Source: Flectonema sp. DT1601 (taxonomy: Eukaryota). From it: a stretch of DNA of 64,000 bases. A model generated the notes under the pieces. The model did not search any database and was not told the origin of the DNA. It saw nothing but the letters and a program-made list of their open reading frames with translations. The position numbers and the translations under genes were made by a program. Positions 8,644-56,049 of the stretch are shown in pieces (the first letter of the stretch is position 1; each line of letters starts with the position of its first letter). Where the stretch lies: positions 248,001 to 312,000 of the forward strand of contig OZ025789.1 in NCBI GenBank assembly GCA_964019425.1, given 5' to 3'.

Positions 8644-9966
8644 TTAGAGCTGCCGGTTACCAGGCAGCCGAACAGAGGCGATGCTGTCCAAGAGGAAACT
8701 ATGTCCTATTTCAGTCACACTAAGATTAAGACTTGAAAGGTCAACAGAAGTGAGCTGTGAACAGAAATTCAAGAAATTATTTCCGATAGTAGTGAGACTA
8801 CTAAGACTACCAGAAAGGTCAAGAGAAGTGAGCTGCGAACAACGGTACAAGAAAAAACTTCCAATACTGGTGAGACTACTAAGACCAGAAAGGTCAAGAG
8901 AAGCGAGGTGTGAACACTGATACAAGAAACGATCTCCAATAGTAGAGAGACTGCTAAGACCAGAAAGGCCAAGAGAAGTGAGTTGTGAACAATCACACAA
9001 GAAACCAACTCCAATACTGGTGAGACTACTAAGACCTGAAAGGTCAAGAGAAGCGAGGTGTGAACTCTCACACAAGCAGTAATCCCCAATACTGGTGAGA
9101 CTAGTAAGACCAGAAAGGTCAAGAGAAGTGAGGTGTGAACACTCAGACAAGAAACCAACTCCAATAGTGGTGAGACTACTAAGACTTGAAAGGTCAACAG
9201 AAGTGAGTTGTGAACTCTCACACAAGCAGTAATCTTCTATAGTGGTGAGACTACTAAGACCCGAAAGGTCAAGAGAAGTGAGTTGTGAACACTCAGACAG
9301 GAAACCAACTCCAATACTGGTGAGACTACTAAGACCTGAAAGGTCAAGAGAAGCGAGGTGTGAATTCTCATACAAGAAGTAATTTCCAATAGTAGAGAGA
9401 CCACTAAGACCTGAAAGGTCAACAGAAGTGAGGTGTGAACTCTCACACAAGCAGTAATCTCCAATAGTGGTGAGACTACTAAGACCTGAAAGGTCAACAG
9501 AAGTGATTGAAGCTTCCCGCAGGAAGTCATGTGAGATGATTGTGATGTCGGAATTTGAATTGCAGAAAGAAATCCGTTTGGCAACTGAAGGCAGCGTACT
9601 TATACTAACACTGAGGCAACCATCTTCTGAGAATGTAGGGGTGTCTAAGTTTAAGTATTCCTCATTGTGGTTTCCAAGCCATTGAAGCAGCTTCTCCCGC
9701 TTCGATTCATCAACAAACCAGCATTTACCAAATAAACGAAACAACTTCCTCCGCATTTCTATCTCGCTGTCTGCACCCAATCCATGATCTGCCAGACGCT
9801 CTGTTTCGTTAAGGGTGTCACCAGCGAACGAGAGTTCAACTTCTTCCGGATCGATATCCCACTCAACAGCCGCCCCCTTCAACAAGTCGCTCACAAGTGA
9901 ATTAGTATCTAACGTGACTGACACAGCAGCGAGTTCCAATTCCGGGAATGTCACAAAAACCTGCAT
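8644..9966 (-). CDS. Ubiquitin-like domain plus tandem 23-aa leucine-rich repeats (BspA-like)
   Basis: MQVFVTF...LVSDLLK...VELSFAGDTL...LADHGL Ubl pattern, then ~11 repeats LTSLDLSGLSSLTSIGxxFLxECS (69-bp DNA period); intronless. Confidence 0.88.
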   Translation of the reverse strand: MQVFVTFPELELAAVSVTLDTNSLVSDLLKGAAVEWDIDPEEVELSFAGDTLNETERLADHGLGADSEIEMRRKLFRLFGKCWFVDESKREKLLQWLGNHNEEYLNLDTPTFSEDGCLSVSISTLPSVAKRISFCNSNSDITIISHDFLREASITSVDLSGLSSLTTIGDYCLCESSHLTSVDLSGLSGLSTIGNYFLYENSHLASLDLSGLSSLTSIGVGFLSECSQLTSLDLSGLSSLTTIEDYCLCESSQLTSVDLSSLSSLTTIGVGFLSECSHLTSLDLSGLTSLTSIGDYCLCESSHLASLDLSGLSSLTSIGVGFLCDCSQLTSLGLSGLSSLSTIGDRFLYQCSHLASLDLSGLSSLTSIGSFFLYRCSQLTSLDLSGSLSSLTTIGNNFLNFCSQLTSVDLSSLNLSVTEIGHSFLLDSIASVRLPGNRQL

Positions 9967-43043: not shown

Positions 43044-46000
43044 TCATTGTGATTGACTTTTATTAGCCTCTTCTCTTATGAGAATGTCAGATATTTTATT
43101 CATTAATTCAGAGCATTGAGCAGCAGCGTCATTCGCTGCATCGATCGATCTTTCTATTTTAGTTACCTCTTGAAGCTCTGATTGCAATCTGTTCAAGTTC
43201 AAATTGCTCTGGGTTAATCTTTTCTCAATAGTTTCAAAATTCACTTTTATGTCCCTCATCGTCTGTATTGTTGTGTACGTACCAGTTAGAAGTTGGCTAT
43301 TACTTTGCTTTGTAACAGTTTGAAATCCCGCAAGCAAATCAATCAGCTCTGAATGATCAATTTGTAATTCAGGAGGAACAGCAACCTTCTTATGTTCACC
43401 AGCTAATTTTCCTTGTATAATGGGATCAAGTTTTTCTATTGAATTTAACTTACTCATGATATTACCATCAGCAGAGTCTTCTGTGGGGTTAGGGGCGCTG
43501 TTTACCGTCATCATACGTTCCTGTGTGGTGATTATTTACAAGTTTCATTTTCCAATAATTGTATAACAGTGTACACATAGTAAGAGTGCAGCTACGTGAA
43601 GTCAGTACAGATCTTGGTTTGCGAATTGATAAATTAATCATTGTGATCATACGCCAGGTAAATATGATGTCATCATACAAAAACAGAATGGCGGGCACTG
43701 TTCATGTCTACACTTCGAGAAGCAGCAAACGTCACACGCTAATGAAGTTGAGGACTTCGAGGAGGACAAGAGAGGAGTCAGTACAGATCTTGGTTTGCGA
43801 ATTGATAAGTTAATCATTATGATCATACGCCAGGTAAATATGATGTCATCATACGAAAACAGAATGGTGGGCACTGTTCATGTCTACACTTCGAGAAGCA
43901 GCAAACGTCACACGCTAATGAAGTTGAGGACTTCGAGGAGGACAAGAGAGGAGTCAGTACAGATCTTGGTTTGCGAATTGATAAATTAATCATTGTGATC
44001 ATACGCCAGGTAAATATGATGTCATCATACAAAAACAGAATGGCGGGCACTGTTCATGTCTACACTTCGAGAAGCAGCAAACGTCACACGCTAATGAAGT
44101 TGAGGACTTCGAGGAGGACAAGAGAGGAGTCAGTACAGATCTTGGTTTGCGAATTGATAAGTTAATCATTGTGATCATACGCCAGGTAAATATGATGTCA
44201 TCATACGAAAACAGAATGGTGGGCACTGTTCATGTCTACACTTCGAGAAGCAGTAAACGTCACACGCTAATGAAGTTGAGGACTTCGAGGAGGACAAGAG
44301 AGGAGTCAGTACAGATCTTGGTTTGCGAATTGATAAGTTAATCATTATGATCATACGCCAGGTAAATATGATGTCATCATACGAAAACAGAATGGCGGGC
44401 ACTGTTCATGTCTACACTTCGAGAAGCAGCAAACGTCACACGCTAGTGAAGTTGAGGACTTCGAGGAGGGCAAGAGAGGAGTCAGTACAGATCTTGGTTT
44501 GCGAATTGATAAATTAATCATTGTGATCATACGCCAGGTAAATATGATGTCATCATACGAAAACAGAATGGCAGGCACTGTTCATGTCTACACTTCGAGA
44601 AGCAGCAAACGCCACACGCTAGTGAAGTTGAGGACTTCGAGGAGGGCAAGAGAGGAGTCAGTACAGATCTTGGTTTGCGAATTGATAAATTAATCATTGT
44701 GATCATACGCCAGGTAAATATGATGTCATCATACAAAAACAGAATGGCGGGCACTGTTCATGTCTACACTTCGAGAAGCAGCAAACGTCACACGCTAATG
44801 AAGTTGAGGACTTCGAGGAGGACAAGAGAGGAGTCAGTACAGATCTTGGTTTGCGAATTGATAAATTAATCATTGTGATCATACGCCAGGTAAATATGAT
44901 GTCATTATACGAAAACAGAATGGTGGGCACTGTTCATGTCTACACTTCGAGAAGCAGCAAACGTCACACGCTAATGAAGTTGAGGACTTCGAGGAGGACA
45001 AGAGAGGAGTCAGTACAGATCTTGGTTTGCGAATTGATAAATTAATCATTGTGATCATACGCCAGGTAAATATGATGTCATCATACGAAAACAGAATGGC
45101 GGGCACTGTTCATGTCTACACTTCGAGAAGCAGCAAACGTCACACGCTAATGAAGTTGAGGACTTCGAGGAGGACAAGAGAGGAGTCAGTACAGATCTTG
45201 GTTTGCGAATTGATAAATTAATCATTGTGATCATACGCCAGGTAAATATGATGTCATCATACGAAAACAGAATGGTGGGCACTGTTCATGTCTACACTTC
45301 GAGAAGCAGTAAACGTCACACGCTAATGAAGTTGAGGACTTCGAGGAGGGCAAGAGAGGAGTCAGTACAGATCTTGGTTTGCGAATTGATAAGTTAATCA
45401 TTGTGATCATACGCCAGGTAAATATGATGTCATCATACGAAAACAGAATGGTGGGCACTGTTCATGTCTACACTTCGAGAAGCAGCAAACGTCACACGCT
45501 AATGAAGTTGAGGACTTCGAGGAGGACAAGAGAGGAGTCAGTACAGATCTTGGTTTGCGAATTGATAAATTAATCATTGTGATCATACGCCAGGTAAATA
45601 TGATGTCATCATACGAAAACAGAATGGTGGGCACTGTTCATGTCTACACTTCGAGAAGCAGTAAACGTCACACGCTAATGAAGTTGAGGACTTCGAGGAG
45701 GACAAGAGAGGAGTCAGTACAGATCTTGGTTTGCGAATTGATAAATTAATCATTGTGATCATACGCCAGGTAAATATGATGTCATCATACGAAAACAGAA
45801 TGGCGGGCACTGTTCATGTCTACACTTCGAGAAGCAGCAAACGTCACACGCTAATGAAGTTGAGGACTTCGAGGAGGACAAGAGAGGAGTCAGTACAGAT
45901 CTTGGTTTGCGAATTGATAAGTTAATCATTATGATCATACGCCAGGTAAATATGATGTCATCATACGAAAACAGAATGGTGGGCACTGTTCATGTCTACA

Positions 46001-48186
46001 CTTCGAGAAGCAGCAAACGTCACACGCTAATGAAGTTGAGGACTTCGAGGAGGACAAGAGAGGAGTCAGTACAGATCTTGGTTTGCGAATTGATAAGTTA
46101 ATCATTATGATCATACGCCAGGTAAATATGATGTCATCATACGAAAACAGAATGGTGGGCACTGTTCATGTCTACACTTCGAGAAGCAGTAAACGTCACA
46201 CGCTAATGAAGTTGAGGACTTCGAGGAGGGCAAGAGAGGAGTCAGTACAGATCTTGGTTTGCGAATTGATAAGTTAATCATTGTGATCATACGCCAGGTA
46301 AATATGATGTCATCATACGAAAACAGAATGGTGGGCACTGTTCATGTCTACACTTCGAGAAGCAGCAAACGTCACACGCTAATGAAGTTGAGGACTTCGA
46401 GGAGGACAAGAGAGGAGTCAGTACAGATCTTGGTTTGCGAATTGATAAATTAATCATTGTGATCATACGCCAGGTAAATATGATGTCATCATACGAAAAC
46501 AGAATGGCGGGCACTGTTCATGTCTACACTTCGAGAAGCAGCAAACGTCACACGCTAATGAAGTTGAGGACTTCGAGGAGGACAAGAGAGGAGTCAGTAC
46601 AGATCTTGGTTTGCGAATTGATAAATTAATCATTGTGATCATACGCCAGGTAAATATGATGTCATTATACGAAAACAGAATGGTGGGCACTGTTCATGTC
46701 TACACTTCGAGAAGCAGTAAACGTCACACGCTAATGAAGTTGAGGACTTCGAGGAGGGCAAGAGAGGAGTCAGTACAGATCTTGGTTTGCGAATTGATAA
46801 GTTAATCATTGTGATCATACGCCAGGTAAATATGATGTCATCATACGAAAACAGAATGGTGGGCACTGTTCATGTCTACACTTCGAGAAGCAGTAAACGT
46901 CACACGCTAATGAAGTTGAGGACTTCGAGGAGGACAAGAGAGGAGTCAGTACAGATCTTGGTTTGCGAATTGATAAATTAATCATTGTGATCATACGCCA
47001 GGTAAATATGATGTCATCATACAAAAACAGAATGGCGGGCACTGTTCATGTCTACACTTCGAGAAGCAGCAAACGTCACACGCTAATGAAGTTGAGGACT
47101 TCGAGGAGGACAAGAGAGGAGTCAGTACAGATCTTGGTTTGCGAATTGATAAATTAATCATTGTGATCATACGCCAGGTAAATATGATGTCATCATACGA
47201 AAACAGAATGGTGGGCACTGTTCATGTCTACACTTCGAGAAGCAGTAAACGTCACACGCTAATGAAGTTGAGGACTTCGAGGAGGACAAGAGAGGAGTCA
47301 GTACAGATCTTGGTTTGCGAATTGATAAGTTAATCATTGTGATCATACGCCAGGTAAATATGATGTCATCATACGAAAACAGAATGGCGGGCACTGTTCA
47401 TGTCTACACTTCGAGAAGCAGTAAACGTCACACGCTAATGAAGTTGAGGACTTCGAGGAGGGCAAGAGAGGAGTCAGTACAGATCTTGGTTTGCGAATTG
47501 ATAAGTTAATCATTGTGATCATACGCCAGGTAAATATGATGTCATCATACGAAAACAGAATGGTGGGCACTGTTCATGTCTACACTTCGAGAAGCAGCAA
47601 ACGTCACACGCTAATGAAGTTGAGGACTTCGAGGAGGACAAGAGAGGAGTCAGTACAGATCTTGGTTTGCGAATTGATAAATTAATCATTGTGATCATAC
47701 GCCAGGTAAATATGATGTCATTATACGAAAACAGAATGGTGGGCACTGTTCATGTCTACACTTCGAGAAGCAGTAAACGTCACACGCTAATGAAGTTGAG
47801 GACTTCGAGGAGGGCAAGAGAGGAGTCAGTACAGATCTTGGTTTGCGAATTGATAAGTTAATCATTGTGATCATACGCCAGGTAAATATGATGTCATCAT
47901 ACGAAAACAGAATGGTGGGCACTGTTCATGTCTACACTTCGAGAAGCAGCAAACGTCACACGCTAATGAAGTTGAGGACTTCGAGGAGGACAAGAGAGGA
48001 GTCAGTACAGATCTTGGTTTGCGAATTGATAAATTAATCATTGTGATCATACGCCAGGTAAATATGATGTCATCATACACAAAAACGCTCAAAGAAGAAT
48101 AAAAACGATACCTGTTCCTCTCTTAGCAACGCTTGGTAGTCGGCTGTAGACTCCGCATTGGACTGTTTACTCTGCTTGTCTCCCAT
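43044..48186 (-). CDS. BORCS5: BORC subunit 5 (myrlysin)-like; exons 48186-48112 and 43520-43044, with a 4591-nt intron holding the C/D array
   Basis: MGDKQS myristoylation motif; CAG|GTATCG..CACAG|GAA phase-0 join; KLNSIEKLDPIIQGKL resembles BORCS5 KLQEIPTFQPLLKGLL (recalled), followed by coiled coil. Confidence 0.72.
43601..48078. repeat. Tandem array, 176-bp period: 26 snoRNA segments and 25 spacers
   Basis: GTCAGTACAG recurs from 43601 to 48001 every 176 bp; substitutions only. Confidence 0.98.
48002..48076 (-). ncRNA. Box C/D snoRNA (representative copy of 26)
   Basis: ATGATGA (C), ATGA (D'), ATGATTA (C'), CTGA (D), 75 nt; D guide ACCAAGATCTGT complementary to LSU GCAGAUCUUGGU. Confidence 0.88.
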
Positions 48187-48421: not shown

Positions 48422-48856
48422 TTATGCGGACACAACGCAGGCACCACCAGCAGCCTTCAACTTCTTCTCAGCGATTCTGGAGATGAAACGAGCCTTCACG
48501 ATGAGTGGCTTGGTAACGAAACCCTTACCCAACAACTTGAATACTCCCTTCGAGGTCAGGTCAACGACTGGTACCTTCTTTCCGGTAGCGGCCTTGGTGT
48601 CAGCCTCGGAAACCATCGCGGAGAGCTGGTTAACGTTGCAAGTTGGCTTCACCATTGGGTTCTTCTTGTAGTGGAAGTGTCTCATACCAACCTTACCAAA
48701 GTATCCCGGATGGTACTTGTCAAACCAGATACGGTGATGGTGCTGACCTCCGGCGTTACCTCTTCCGGAAGGATGCTTTCTGTGCTTTCCTACACGACCG
48801 TGACCCGCACTGACGTGTCCTCTCTTCTTACGGTTCTTGCGGAGTGCGGTGGTCAT
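48422..48856 (-). CDS. RPL27A: 60S ribosomal protein L27a (uL15)
   Basis: [42 protein letters not shown]. Confidence 0.97.
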
Positions 48857-52480: not shown

Positions 52481-52915
52481 TTATGCGGACACAACGCAGG
52501 CACCACCAGCAGCCTTCAACTTCTTCTCAGCGATTCTGGAGATGAAACGAGCCTTCACGATGAGTGGCTTGGTAACGAAACCCTTACCCAACAACTTGAA
52601 TACTCCCTTCGAGGTCAGGTCAACGACTGGTACCTTCTTTCCGGTAGCGGCCTTGGTGTCAGCCTCGGAAACCATCGCGGAGAGCTGGTTAACGTTGCAA
52701 GTTGGCTTCACCATTGGGTTCTTCTTGTAGTGGAAGTGTCTCATACCAACCTTACCAAAGTATCCCGGATGGTACTTGTCAAACCAGATACGGTGATGGT
52801 GCTGACCTCCGGCGTTACCTCTTCCGGAAGGATGCTTTCTGTGCTTTCCTACACGACCGTGACCAGCACTGACGTGTCCTCTCTTCTTACGGTTCTTGCG
52901 GAGTGCGGTGGTCAT
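52481..52915 (-). CDS. RPL27A: 60S ribosomal protein L27a (uL15)
   Basis: Protein identical to 48422-48856. Confidence 0.97.
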
Positions 52916-53433: not shown

Positions 53434-53868
53434 TTATGCGGACACAACGCAGGCACCACCAGCAGCCTTCAACTTCTTCTCAGCGATTCTGGAGATGAAA
53501 CGAGCCTTCACGATGAGTGGCTTGGTAACGAAACCCTTACCCAACAACTTGAATACTCCCTTCGAGGTCAGGTCAACGACTGGTACCTTCTTTCCGGTAG
53601 CGGCCTTGGTGTCAGCCTCGGAAACCATCGCGGAGAGCTGGTTAACGTTGCAAGTTGGCTTCACCATTGGGTTCTTCTTGTAGTGGAAGTGTCTCATACC
53701 AACCTTACCAAAGTATCCCGGATGGTACTTGTCAAACCAGATACGGTGATGGTGCTGACCTCCGGCGTTACCTCTTCCGGAAGGATGCTTTCTGTGCTTT
53801 CCTACACGACCGTGACCAGCACTGACGTGTCCTCTCTTCTTACGGTTCTTGCGGAGTGCGGTGGTCAT
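53434..53868 (-). CDS. RPL27A: 60S ribosomal protein L27a (uL15)
   Basis: Protein identical to the other two copies. Confidence 0.97.
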
Positions 53869-56049
53869 TTTGTGATGGTCTGAAAGGACGGGAGGGAAGT
53901 AATAATAAAGTTTCCTAATTAGGAAGTTGAAATATCAAACGAGAATCCATCAGCCAACAACAAACATTACTAATCTGGTAAAAAATAATTATAATAACTC
54001 CACGAGAAGCACTGAATTACTATTTCTACACACAGTACTTTGTTCACAACGTAACGTAAGAAATCATCATACAAATATTCTTCTTCTTTCTTTTTTGTTT
54101 TGTTTTTTTTTTTTGTGGTTTTTTTTTTTTTTTTTTTCCTTCTTCACATCTCTTCTCCAAAACTACACTATCACGAGGGGGTATAATTATTTTGAACTTG
54201 TAATTACCAACTGCAATGTATCAAATCATAACGATAGCGTAACATACGTTAAAAGACACAATGACTAAGGTGTTCACAGGGGGGTTGACTGTTTGAAATC
54301 AATGCCTACAATATTAATATATTGTATCAAGGCTAACTATTATAAACATTTACCACGGGGAGGGGCATTTTTTTTAGGGAAAAAAAAAATAAGCAAATTA
54401 GGGGGTTAAGACATAAAAAAAGAAGAAGAAGGAAAATTCTCCGTTGTTCCCCCGAACAACTTTTATTTTTTCTAGCCACTCAAAAAGATTTTCTAAAATA
54501 CTTTTGTACCAAGGTGGATTGCTGAGGATATTGAGGTGGCAGTAATTCTGTCCCTTCTTTCTTTCCTGTCACCGGGACAAAAAACTTCGTCCCGAGTTTT
54601 TTTTTTTACTTTCCATTCAACACACACATCTACGAATTCATGGTAATGAGTTGATTGAAAGCCAATAACACAAACAGTCAAGTGATAACTTGAGAATTGA
54701 TAATGTAATCTGCTTTCTGAACTTCCACTGAGTACGAGTTGAATACTCCGATAACCAGGCTGCGGTCTGTAACTCGCAAGTGTATTGACCTTGAAGTTCA
54801 ATTTGAATGACGTGTAAGAGGACAACAGTTCTCCGTCATTTCGTTTCCAATTTAGTGAGGCAGAATGAAAAAAAAAAAAAAGAGTTGTTCAGAAACAGCG
54901 AATATTTTTTTTTTTTAAGTGCAGGCAACGGAGGAAAAGAAAAAAGTTAAGGTGACAGGCAACGGAGAGGAAAAAAAATGCTTTTTTTTGATGTAGGCAA
55001 CGGAGAAAGTCCAAAAAAAAAAAAAAAAAAAAAAATGAAAAAATGATCAGCAGCGAAGATGACAAAAAAGCAGGTGCAAAGGCAAAAATAAGTATAAAAG
55101 GCTAGACGTGGATTACATAAGGTTACAGTGCGACCAAGTAACCGAAAGATTAAAAAAAAAAAACTTGTTCCAAATCTGAAAAGCAGTGAAGATATGATAT
55201 TTTCCGTTACCCAGATCACTAGTGTACAAGAAAAGCAGAATCTGACTTTTCCCTGAAGTGCTTCCTCTTCGTGATTTTCCTGACGATGTAGACAAAAATA
55301 TTGAACGAATTTAGTTAAAACGCGCACAGCCCCATGGACAATCTTATAAGTATTTTTAGAATTTTCATTCCGAAACTGTCATTTTAAGGCCACTAACCAA
55401 GTTAGTTAAACACAGACTCACAATGTTACTTGTGGACAAACCAATACTGAAGGACAAGAAAACGAATTGAAAACTCTCTTTTCTTTTTTTTTTTTTCTTT
55501 CTCTGTTCTCCCCCCCCCCATCCATAATTATTCCCAAACACGTATTTATATCAACAAAGAACCCGAATATTCGGATCTTCTTTTTTTTTTTTTTTTTTTT
55601 TGTTCCTTCGTTTTTGTTTTTTTTTTTTTCCTCGCTTAACTCTCTTAGACTGCAATGGTTATTCCGTATTCTGAAGTTCTCTGTTAACCATGTGCTGTTG
55701 TTTAGCCATTTTTTTTATAGGTGTTTTTGGACAGTAGAACACCTCTCAAATAACAAGAAAAGAATCTCAATTTTTTTTTTTTATTTTTTTTTTTATTTTG
55801 GGAATATAATAAACGGAAAATGCCTACAACGGATAGAATGAAGATAGAAAAAAAAAAAAATACAGTGCTCAAGTTCGATTCCGATCGGTGTCATTTTTTT
55901 TTTTCTTTTTTTTTTTTCTGACAATCTGGGATTTTCGGATAGCAGTATGTTTTAAAAATTAGATCGAAACAGAGAATGATTAGCATTGGTCAAGGATGAC
56001 TCTCATTAATTGAGAAAATATCACCTTTTTTTTTTTTTTTTTTTTTTGA

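What the first reader, a model, noticed from the sequence alone, without database searches (positions are those of the whole stretch)
43521..48111. 26 tandem copies of one box C/D snoRNA fill the intron of a BORCS5-like gene
Seen: on the transcribed strand the 176-bp array begins exactly at a C box (ATGATGA) and ends exactly at a D box (CTGA), giving 26 RNAs and 25 spacers. D' and C' boxes are present and the guides are invariant while spacers vary. The array lies between in-frame GT/AG sites of a two-exon gene. Established: LSU GCAGAUCUUGGU is the region where U24/snR24 guides yeast Cm1437. By the D+5 rule this guide would methylate the G three nt upstream, a site I recall being modified in trypanosomatids (to verify). 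Inference: one spliced intron yields 26 near-identical guides. Euglenozoan snoRNA clusters are known as non-intronic repeats; I know no intronic homo-array of this size.
Basis: partly seen in the sequence, partly recalled or inferred. Interest (0 to 1): 0.88.

Follow-up and report, generated by a model that had tools for sequence, protein, structure and literature searches.

The report
26 guide-RNA genes in one intron
One 4.6-kb intron of a diplonemid (marine flagellate) gene holds 26 near-identical tandem copies of a small RNA gene that likely guides two methylations of ribosomal RNA, a known kind of gene in a known kind of place but at an unusually high copy number.

Summary
Observation confirmed; interpretation largely supported and extended. 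The minus strand holds 26 units of 75 nt (C box to D box) and 25 spacers of 101 nt. The repeat runs only 2 nt past the boxes at each end. The 4,591-nt GT-AG intron is backed by a transcript-derived Flectonema protein spanning the junction; the host is a diplonemid, and the gene is probably BORCS5. The D guide matches, in sequence and register, trypanosomatid LM36Cs-1'C1/TB10Cs2"C3, assigned to LSU Gm1524, a site confirmed by mass spectrometry. New: the D' guide has its own 11-nt complement in diplonemid-type LSU rRNA. Guide invariance is not significant (P = 0.24), and 3 of 26 C boxes are mutated. Expression, processing and the host's own rRNA were not seen. A second intron in the window holds a 54-copy array with a guide-like hairpin but no target found. 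Intronic same-gene clusters of 2-3 copies are in print; the scan noted similar 20-26-copy intronic arrays in Euglena-like DNA (unchecked). New variant of a known kind.

The parts
48112..48186 (-). Coding part of exon 1 of the host gene (25 codons, starts Met-Gly)
   Evidence: 19 of 25 residues identical to the N-terminus of Flectonema transcript protein P0002; best match in six frames, score 84 against next best 36
43521..48111 (-). GT-AG intron, 4,591 nt, phase 0, holding the array
43600..48078 (-). Array: 26 x 75-nt C-to-D units (79 nt with the 2 shared nt each side) and 25 spacers, period 176
48070..48076 (-). Box C of copy 1 (ATGATGA; ATAATGA in the copies starting at 47724, 46668 and 44908)
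48052..48062 (-). D' guide of copy 1, 11-nt Watson-Crick complement to LSU CGCCAGGUAAA; predicted target is the C before AGGUAAA (LSU position 1052 in L121)
48047..48050 (-). Box D' (ATGA) of copy 1
   Evidence: sequence
48035..48041 (-). Box C' (ATGATTA) of copy 1
   Evidence: sequence
48008..48019 (-). D guide of copy 1, 12-nt Watson-Crick complement to LSU CAGAUCUUGGUU; predicted target G equivalent to L. major Gm1524 / T. brucei 1605
48002..48005 (-). Box D (CTGA) of copy 1
47901..48001 (-). First 101-nt spacer: no stable fold; opens with a pyrimidine tract (18 of 20) and AAG; one CAG 80 nt after box D
43602..43676 (-). Copy 26 (last), ending 81 nt before the acceptor
43044..43520 (-). Exon 2 of the host gene (158 codons and stop); spliced product 183 aa, probably BORCS5
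   Evidence: 72% identity to P0002

Best explanation
The intron holds a tandem array of 26 box C/D snoRNA genes whose two guides are predicted to direct 2'-O-methylation of two sites in large-subunit rRNA, and which are likely cut out of the spliced host intron as 75-79-nt RNAs. Shown: the anatomy, the intron, the complements in diplonemid-type rRNA, and the trypanosomatid counterpart of the D guide. Inferred: the array is co-transcribed with the host gene, the intron is spliced and debranched, cuts fall in the spacers by an unidentified activity, and trimming stops at protein-bound C/D ends. Also inferred: the array grew by unequal crossing-over between two earlier copies that shared only the RNA, which gives n RNAs and n-1 spacers, and is still being mixed by recombination or gene conversion. 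The number 26 is probably more a product of repeat turnover than a need for 26 doses.
For: Only two stretches of the 176-nt unit have a perfect complement of 9 nt or more in SSU, 5.8S and LSU of diplonemid-type loci, and they are the two guide positions. The D' complement of 11 nt was reached by 0 of 300 shuffles of the target. The D guide shares AACCAAGAUCUG, two spacer nt and a D box with LM36Cs-1'C1, assigned to LSU 1524, and Gm1524 is confirmed by MS. L121 was fetched by the D' motif and also carries the D target; its SSU 2064, ITS1 93, 5.8S 152 and ITS2 142 nt match the deep-sea diplonemids of PMC9082867 Table S1. All six weak Rfam hits are C/D snoRNA families on the minus strand. The array ends at the boxes. 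There are 17 haplotypes among 25 units and 12 of 45 column pairs show all four combinations. Plants make mature snoRNAs from intronic polycistronic clusters (PMC7671301).
Against: No reads were examined, so no RNA, junction or copy number was seen directly in this organism, and its own rRNA was not seen. No Rfam family reaches its gathering score. Conservation is no higher in the RNA than in the spacer (P = 0.52) and three C boxes are mutated. There is no terminal stem beyond about one pair (and sequence). The D' site has no complement in the kinetoplastid-like locus L001 (-9.3 against -21.6 kcal/mol), and I found no published modification matching it. Loci L001-L120 were selected by the D target, so the D match in them is circular. 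No nuclease signal was identified in the spacer.
Confidence: 0.72

Rival explanations
1. A real snoRNA gene caught in an intronic minisatellite: only one or a few copies (likely the end ones) give mature RNA, and the rest is neutral repeat DNA that is degraded with the intron.
For: No excess conservation of the RNA over the spacer and three C-box mutants spread by copying. A second intron in the same window holds a 54-copy array with no rRNA target found. Gene-adjacent tandem arrays of up to about 5 kb that are not part of the mRNA are described in D. papillatum (PMC10161547).
Against: 23 of 26 copies have intact boxes and all 26 have intact guides. With 10 variable columns the test for selection has little power. 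Every copy lies in the same transcript.
Confidence: 0.15
2. Splicing machinery separates the copies: each spacer's pyrimidine tract and AG would act as a spliced-leader trans-splice acceptor, or its CAG as a cis acceptor, so the copies are freed by splicing and not by a nuclease acting on one excised intron.
For: Trypanosomatid snoRNA precursors are trans-spliced and polyadenylated (review PMC6562600). The spacer opens with 18 of 20 pyrimidines and AAG, like the tract-plus-AG sites found upstream of 17 of 19 ORFs tested. The spacer's only CAG lies 80 nt after box D, and the true acceptor lies 81 nt after the last box D. GT precedes every C box.
Against: AAG ends only 2 of the 17 upstream sites. 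The unit has no AG|GT recursive site (sequence). 25 internal acceptors would compete with making the host mRNA. The GT before box C is also explained by pairing with the C after box D. The 80/81 match has roughly a 1-in-20 chance (my estimate).
Confidence: 0.08
3. The copies are not separated efficiently: the intron would persist as a long RNA, or a ladder of multiples of 176 nt, protected by C/D proteins at its ends (like a snoRNA-ended long RNA), acting as a multivalent guide or a sink for C/D proteins.
For: Human snoRNA-ended long RNAs arise this way (review PMC7038934). Ostreococcus clusters accumulate stable multi-snoRNA forms (PMC7671301). The spacer has no stable hairpin for an RNase III-type cut (z = -0.10).
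Against: The guides are ordinary rRNA guides with a counterpart that works as a single small RNA. Clusters in plants and yeast are normally processed rapidly.
Confidence: 0.04
4. The copy number is an assembly artefact and the true locus has one or two copies.
For: No long reads were examined.
Against: Copies differ by 10 shared transitions in 17 combinations with no indels, which neither collapse nor random error produces; the contig is 837 kb.
Confidence: 0.01

Closest known systems
Trypanosomatid C/D snoRNA LM36Cs-1'C1 / LD36Cs-1'C1 / TB10Cs2"C3 (PMC13487219, supplementary files 11 and 12, rows seen)
   Same: Same D guide core (ACCAAGAUCUG), same two-nt offset to the D box, same predicted target G (L. 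major 1524, T. brucei 1605); similar length.
   Different: The 5' half differs: the Leishmania RNA's second site is LSU 1552, whereas this D' guide matches a site about 440 nt upstream of the D target. Trypanosomatid snoRNAs come from trans-spliced, polyadenylated clusters, and cis-introns are confined to about three genes there (PMC11613528).
Intronic same-gene snoRNA clusters of plants (Arabidopsis snoR155a-c, snoR79a-c, snoR100a-c; PMC2875012, passages) and intronic clusters of Ostreococcus (PMC7671301)
   Same: Several snoRNA genes, sometimes copies of one, inside a single intron of a protein-coding gene.
   Different: 2-3 copies in the cases I saw, against 26 copies that are 98% identical here; those examples are H/ACA RNAs.
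Euglena gracilis clustered, multi-copy modification-guide snoRNA genes (as described in PMC2784804 and PMC7671301; the primary paper, Moore and Russell 2012, seen only as a reference)
   Same: Sister lineage, tandem multi-copy guide genes, polycistronic expression.
   Different: The passages I saw do not describe an intronic single-gene array; the scan's own unchecked notes report intronic 20-26-copy cassettes in Euglena-like DNA.
SNORD116 / SNORD115 clusters (27 and 48 copies; review PMC7038934)
   Same: Similar copy number of one C/D RNA in tandem within a host transcript.
   Different: Orphan guides in a non-coding host, typically one per intron (the per-intron layout is partly recalled); here all copies share one intron of a coding gene and have rRNA targets.
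BORCS5 / LOH1CR12 (PF10158), for the host gene
   Same: Three diplonemid homologues hit PF10158 at E 0.0007-0.004; the atlas's top hits are BORCS5 clusters at 0.93; Met-Gly start and a long C-terminal helix.
   Different: All Pfam scores are below the curated cut-off, the window's exon 2 does not hit the family, and the atlas recognition value is low.

Membership tests
Box C/D methylation-guide snoRNA | Box C (RUGAUGA) at the 5' end and box D (CUGA) at the 3' end, 60-110 nt apart | tested here: met
   23 of 26 copies have both; 3 have ATAATGA
Box C/D methylation-guide snoRNA | Internal D' and C' boxes | tested here: met
   ATGA and ATGATTA, both degenerate; AUGA also serves as a D box in LM36Cs-1'C1
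Box C/D methylation-guide snoRNA | Complement of 10 nt or more to rRNA just upstream of D or D' | tested here: met
   12 nt and 11 nt in 4 of 4 diplonemid-type loci; tested on relatives' rRNA, not the host's
Box C/D methylation-guide snoRNA | The nucleotide paired to D+5 is 2'-O-methylated | not testable with these tools
   The equivalent G is methylated in L. major; no data for a diplonemid or for the D' site
Box C/D methylation-guide snoRNA | Accumulates as a discrete small RNA bound to fibrillarin, Nop56/58 and Snu13 | not testable with these tools
   No read or protein-binding data examined
A curated Rfam snoRNA family | Score at or above the family's gathering threshold | tested here: not met
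   Best 20.6 bits against 48 (snoMe28S-Cm2645), E = 0.12
U24/snR24-type guide | D+5 falls on the C of GAUC | tested here: not met
   D+5 is unit position 67 and falls on the G three nt upstream; Cm1527 has a different guide in Leishmania
Intronic snoRNA cluster | Several snoRNA genes, sense to the host, within one spliceosomal intron | tested here: met
   In-frame GT-AG junction matched by P0002 without a gap at the junction; shown by homology, not by this organism's reads
Intronic snoRNA cluster | Mature RNAs are released from the intron | not testable with these tools
   No expression data examined
BORCS5 (PF10158) | Pfam score at or above the curated cut-off of 24.7 bits | tested here: not met
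   Best 20.2 bits; language-model look-alikes support the label as a lead
U1 snRNA (considered because unit positions 12-33 recall its 5' end) | Rfam U1 match and U1 stem-loop architecture | tested here: not met
   No U1 hit at E up to 10; the same stretch is explained as the D' guide

The most novel reading that the evidence does not exclude
In this diplonemid, satellite-like arrays filling introns of ordinary genes are amplified guide-RNA genes as a rule (two such introns in 64 kb, 26 and 54 copies, 17% of the window), and spliced-leader trans-splicing at each spacer's pyrimidine tract and AG is what cuts the copies apart inside a cis-spliced intron, joining the trypanosome way of maturing snoRNAs to the intronic layout of plants and animals.
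Probability: 0.12. Interest if true: 0.8.

Novelty: new variant of a known kind. Interest (0 to 1): 0.52.

Why it matters
Diplonemids are abundant marine eukaryotes, and my two searches (listings only) showed no paper devoted to their snoRNAs. This locus gives a concrete guide with a conserved target and a second target that the kinetoplastid-like rRNA examined lacks. It shows that repeat-masked intronic 'satellite' can be gene arrays. It also makes two questions testable: how a cell with both cis- and trans-splicing frees many snoRNAs from one intron, and whether copy number sets guide dose. The copy-specific variants allow small-RNA reads to be assigned to groups of copies. The components and the general layout are known, which caps the interest.

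Tried and rejected
No whole genome is held, so a genome-wide survey and the host's rRNA were out of reach; read evidence for expression, junction and copy number was not obtained. Guide invariance as evidence of selection: not significant. Extra guide-target helices upstream of the cores: matched by 719 and 1,282 of 2,000 shuffles, rejected. U1 snRNA reading: no Rfam support. A second RNA in the spacer: no fold beyond shuffles and no rRNA complement of 9 nt or more. Recursive splicing: no AG|GT in the unit (sequence). Orthologous loci: 0 matches in viral contigs (uninformative for a eukaryote); no look-alikes in the scan's notes; protein P0013, a genomic call that starts at the exon-2 Met, hints at the same intron in another assembly, but its DNA was not fetched. 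Host protein: Foldseek and PDB sequence searches gave nothing usable; a profile search found only diplonemid proteins. rRNA target for the 122-bp array: best 9 Watson-Crick pairs, reached by 33 of 40 shuffles; no matching pockets in the Leishmania/T. brucei H/ACA table (PMC11156624 file 7). A search for 'Gm1524' in main texts found 0 papers; the site came from supplements. PMC2390600 (Chlamydomonas intronic clusters) is not held. Additional file 1 of PMC10161547, which covers structural RNAs and introns, could not be read and may bear on the claim that diplonemid snoRNAs are undescribed.
Full report
Observation. On the minus strand there are 26 units of 75 nt from ATGATGA to CTGA (first 48076-48002, last 43676-43602) and 25 spacers of 101 nt, at an exact 176-nt period with no indels. 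The repeat extends only 2 nt into unique sequence at each end, so the repeated element with unique flanks is 79 nt. Internal boxes are D' ATGA (unit 27-30) and C' ATGATTA (36-42). Ten columns vary, all by transitions: 3 in the RNA and 7 in the spacer. One of the three is in box C, in 3 of 26 copies. The guides are invariant, but that has probability 0.24 by chance, and RNA and spacer do not differ in variability (Fisher P = 0.52). The anatomy as a whole is not chance: 1 of 3,000 shuffled units passed a box-plus-complement test.

Host gene and organism. GT at 48111 and AG at 43521 join a 25-codon exon to a 158-codon exon in frame, giving 183 aa. A complete transcript-derived protein from Flectonema neradi (P0002, 184 aa) aligns across the junction without a gap there; 19 of 25 exon-1 residues are identical, and exon 1 is its best match in all six frames of the window. 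Five of the six further homologues looked up carry names, all diplonemid (D. papillatum, D. ambulator, D. japonicum, Lacrimia, Namystynia); the sixth is unnamed. The intron is therefore supported by homology, not by this organism's reads. The BORCS5 label is a fair lead: three homologues hit PF10158 at E 0.0007-0.004, below the cut-off, and the atlas's best hits are BORCS5 clusters at 0.93 with a low recognition value. The fold model is one long helix with pTM 0.36 and gave no structural match.

D guide. The fifth nucleotide before box D (unit 67) pairs with the G of CAGAUCUUGGUU. In the supplements of PMC13487219 (rows found by search; main text seen as passages), L. major LSU fragment 1522-1530 is CA(Gm)AU(Cm)YUG by mass spectrometry. 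Site 1524 (T. brucei 1605) is assigned to LM36Cs-1'C1 / TB10Cs2"C3, whose 3' end has the same guide core at the same distance from its D box. Cm1527, the C three nt downstream, is assigned to another RNA.

D' guide (not in the finding). I fetched 120 metagenome loci holding the D target, from a scan that covered 4 of 64 parts of the collection; 62 looked like LSU rRNA and 32 were long enough to align. The 11-nt complement of the D' guide sits at one homologous site about 440 nt upstream in 5 of those 32 (L018, L020, L038, L025, L039); 2 of the 32 had no aligned sequence there. L018, L020 and L038 form one clade and are 88-97% identical to L121, whose SSU, ITS1, 5.8S and ITS2 lengths (2064, 93, 152, 142) match deep-sea diplonemids in Table S1 of PMC9082867 (for example 2067, 93, 152, 141; abstract and that supplement read). 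L025 and L039 are of unknown lineage, so the site is not unique to diplonemids. Across SSU, 5.8S and LSU of L121 plus L020, the only perfect complements of 9 nt or more to the 176-nt unit are the two guides, and 0 of 300 target shuffles reached 11 nt for D'. Caveats: L001-L120 were chosen by the D motif and L121 by the D' motif, so each set is independent evidence only for the other guide. The kinetoplastid-like L001 lacks the D' complement. The Leishmania table lists only positions 1010, 1039 and 1068 in that region, and my placing of the equivalent base near 1042 is an estimate. The D' methylation is therefore a prediction with no published counterpart that I found.

How it most likely works. 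The copies are sense to the host, so they are transcribed with it (inference). The simplest route is splicing, debranching, cuts in the spacers and trimming to protein-bound ends, as described for plant intronic clusters (PMC7671301, passages). The cutting activity is unknown; the spacer has no stable hairpin. Two alternatives stay open. Trypanosomatid snoRNA precursors are trans-spliced and polyadenylated (review PMC6562600, passages), and each spacer opens with a pyrimidine tract and AAG like the sites upstream of 17 of 19 ORFs tested, though AAG ends only 2 of those. Or the copies may stay joined, as in snoRNA-ended long RNAs (review PMC7038934, passages). On origin, n RNAs with n-1 spacers and unrelated flanks fit unequal crossing-over between two copies that shared only the RNA. 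That implies the RNA was kept while its flanks diverged, which is better evidence of past function than present invariance (inference). Seventeen haplotypes in 25 units and 12 of 45 four-gamete pairs show continued mixing and argue against an assembly artefact.

Context. A second array, 54 copies of about 122 bp at 21967-15413, fills the 6,713-nt last intron (22023-15311) of another gene, whose junction is matched by transcript-derived protein P0018. Its unit folds as a single hairpin with an internal pocket followed by AGA (z = -2.27), and a diverged final copy keeps both stems and both pocket strands but lacks AGA. No rRNA target beat shuffles and Rfam gave only SNORA35 at E = 0.6. It may be a pseudouridine guide for another RNA or a plain minisatellite. 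It cuts both ways: it suggests a genome-wide habit, and it shows that introns here expand repeats readily, as gene-adjacent arrays in D. papillatum also show (PMC10161547, passages).

Comparison and novelty. The RNA works like, and by sequence tests is, a box C/D guide, with expression and methylation untested; it belongs to no curated Rfam family. Intronic clusters of 2-3 copies of one snoRNA are known in Arabidopsis (PMC2875012, passages), repeated clusters in trypanosomatids and Euglena (PMC2784804, passages), and arrays of 27 and 48 copies in humans. I did not find a 26-copy array in one intron in print (searches; listings and some passages; subscription papers are not held), nor a study of diplonemid snoRNAs. 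The scan's earlier notes report 20-26-copy intronic cassettes in Euglena-like DNA and a six-copy intronic array in an invertebrate (unchecked), so the layout may recur. Verdict: real, a new variant of a known kind, interest 0.52.

Noticed in passing
window 15413-21967 (- strand): 54 copies of a ~122-bp unit fill the 6,713-nt last intron (22023-15311) of a small gene matched by transcript protein P0018. The unit is a pocketed hairpin followed by AGA, like euglenozoan single-hairpin pseudouridine guides; no rRNA target was found above chance.
   Followed up: partly
window 15378-15435 (- strand): A diverged, shorter final copy of the 122-bp unit keeps both stems and both pocket strands with a different loop, and lacks the AGA box.
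   Followed up: partly
window 15293-22444 (- strand): Three-exon gene of no Pfam family (introns 22219-22144 and 22023-15311); its last exon codes only five residues; one homologue found.
   Followed up: partly
window 48422-48856, 52481-52915, 53434-53868 (- strand): Three near-identical RPL27a genes (0-1 differences in 435 nt), one separated from the other two by an 868-aa ORF that looks like an aminopeptidase (label from recall).
   Followed up: partly
window 55931-56031 (+ strand): U6 snRNA gene (Rfam 46.6 bits) that lacks six nt of the consensus in the internal stem-loop region, on the strand opposite the protein genes.
   Followed up: no
window 43509-43514 (- strand) and proteins P0014/P0019: A Met just after the splice junction is present in all eight aligned proteins, and D. 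japonicum has both a 187-aa and a 156-aa transcript form starting there; a short form without the Met-Gly N-terminus may exist.
   Followed up: partly
window 8644-9966 (- strand): Ubiquitin-like domain fused to about ten 25-residue leucine-rich repeats (BspA-type).
   Followed up: no
L121:1-4986: A diplonemid-type rDNA contig lies inside a genome bin titled as a Rickettsiales bacterium: contamination, possibly from a host.
   Followed up: partly
whole window: All long ORFs lie on the minus strand, as expected for a polycistronic gene run; both arrays are C-rich on the transcribed strand.
   Followed up: no
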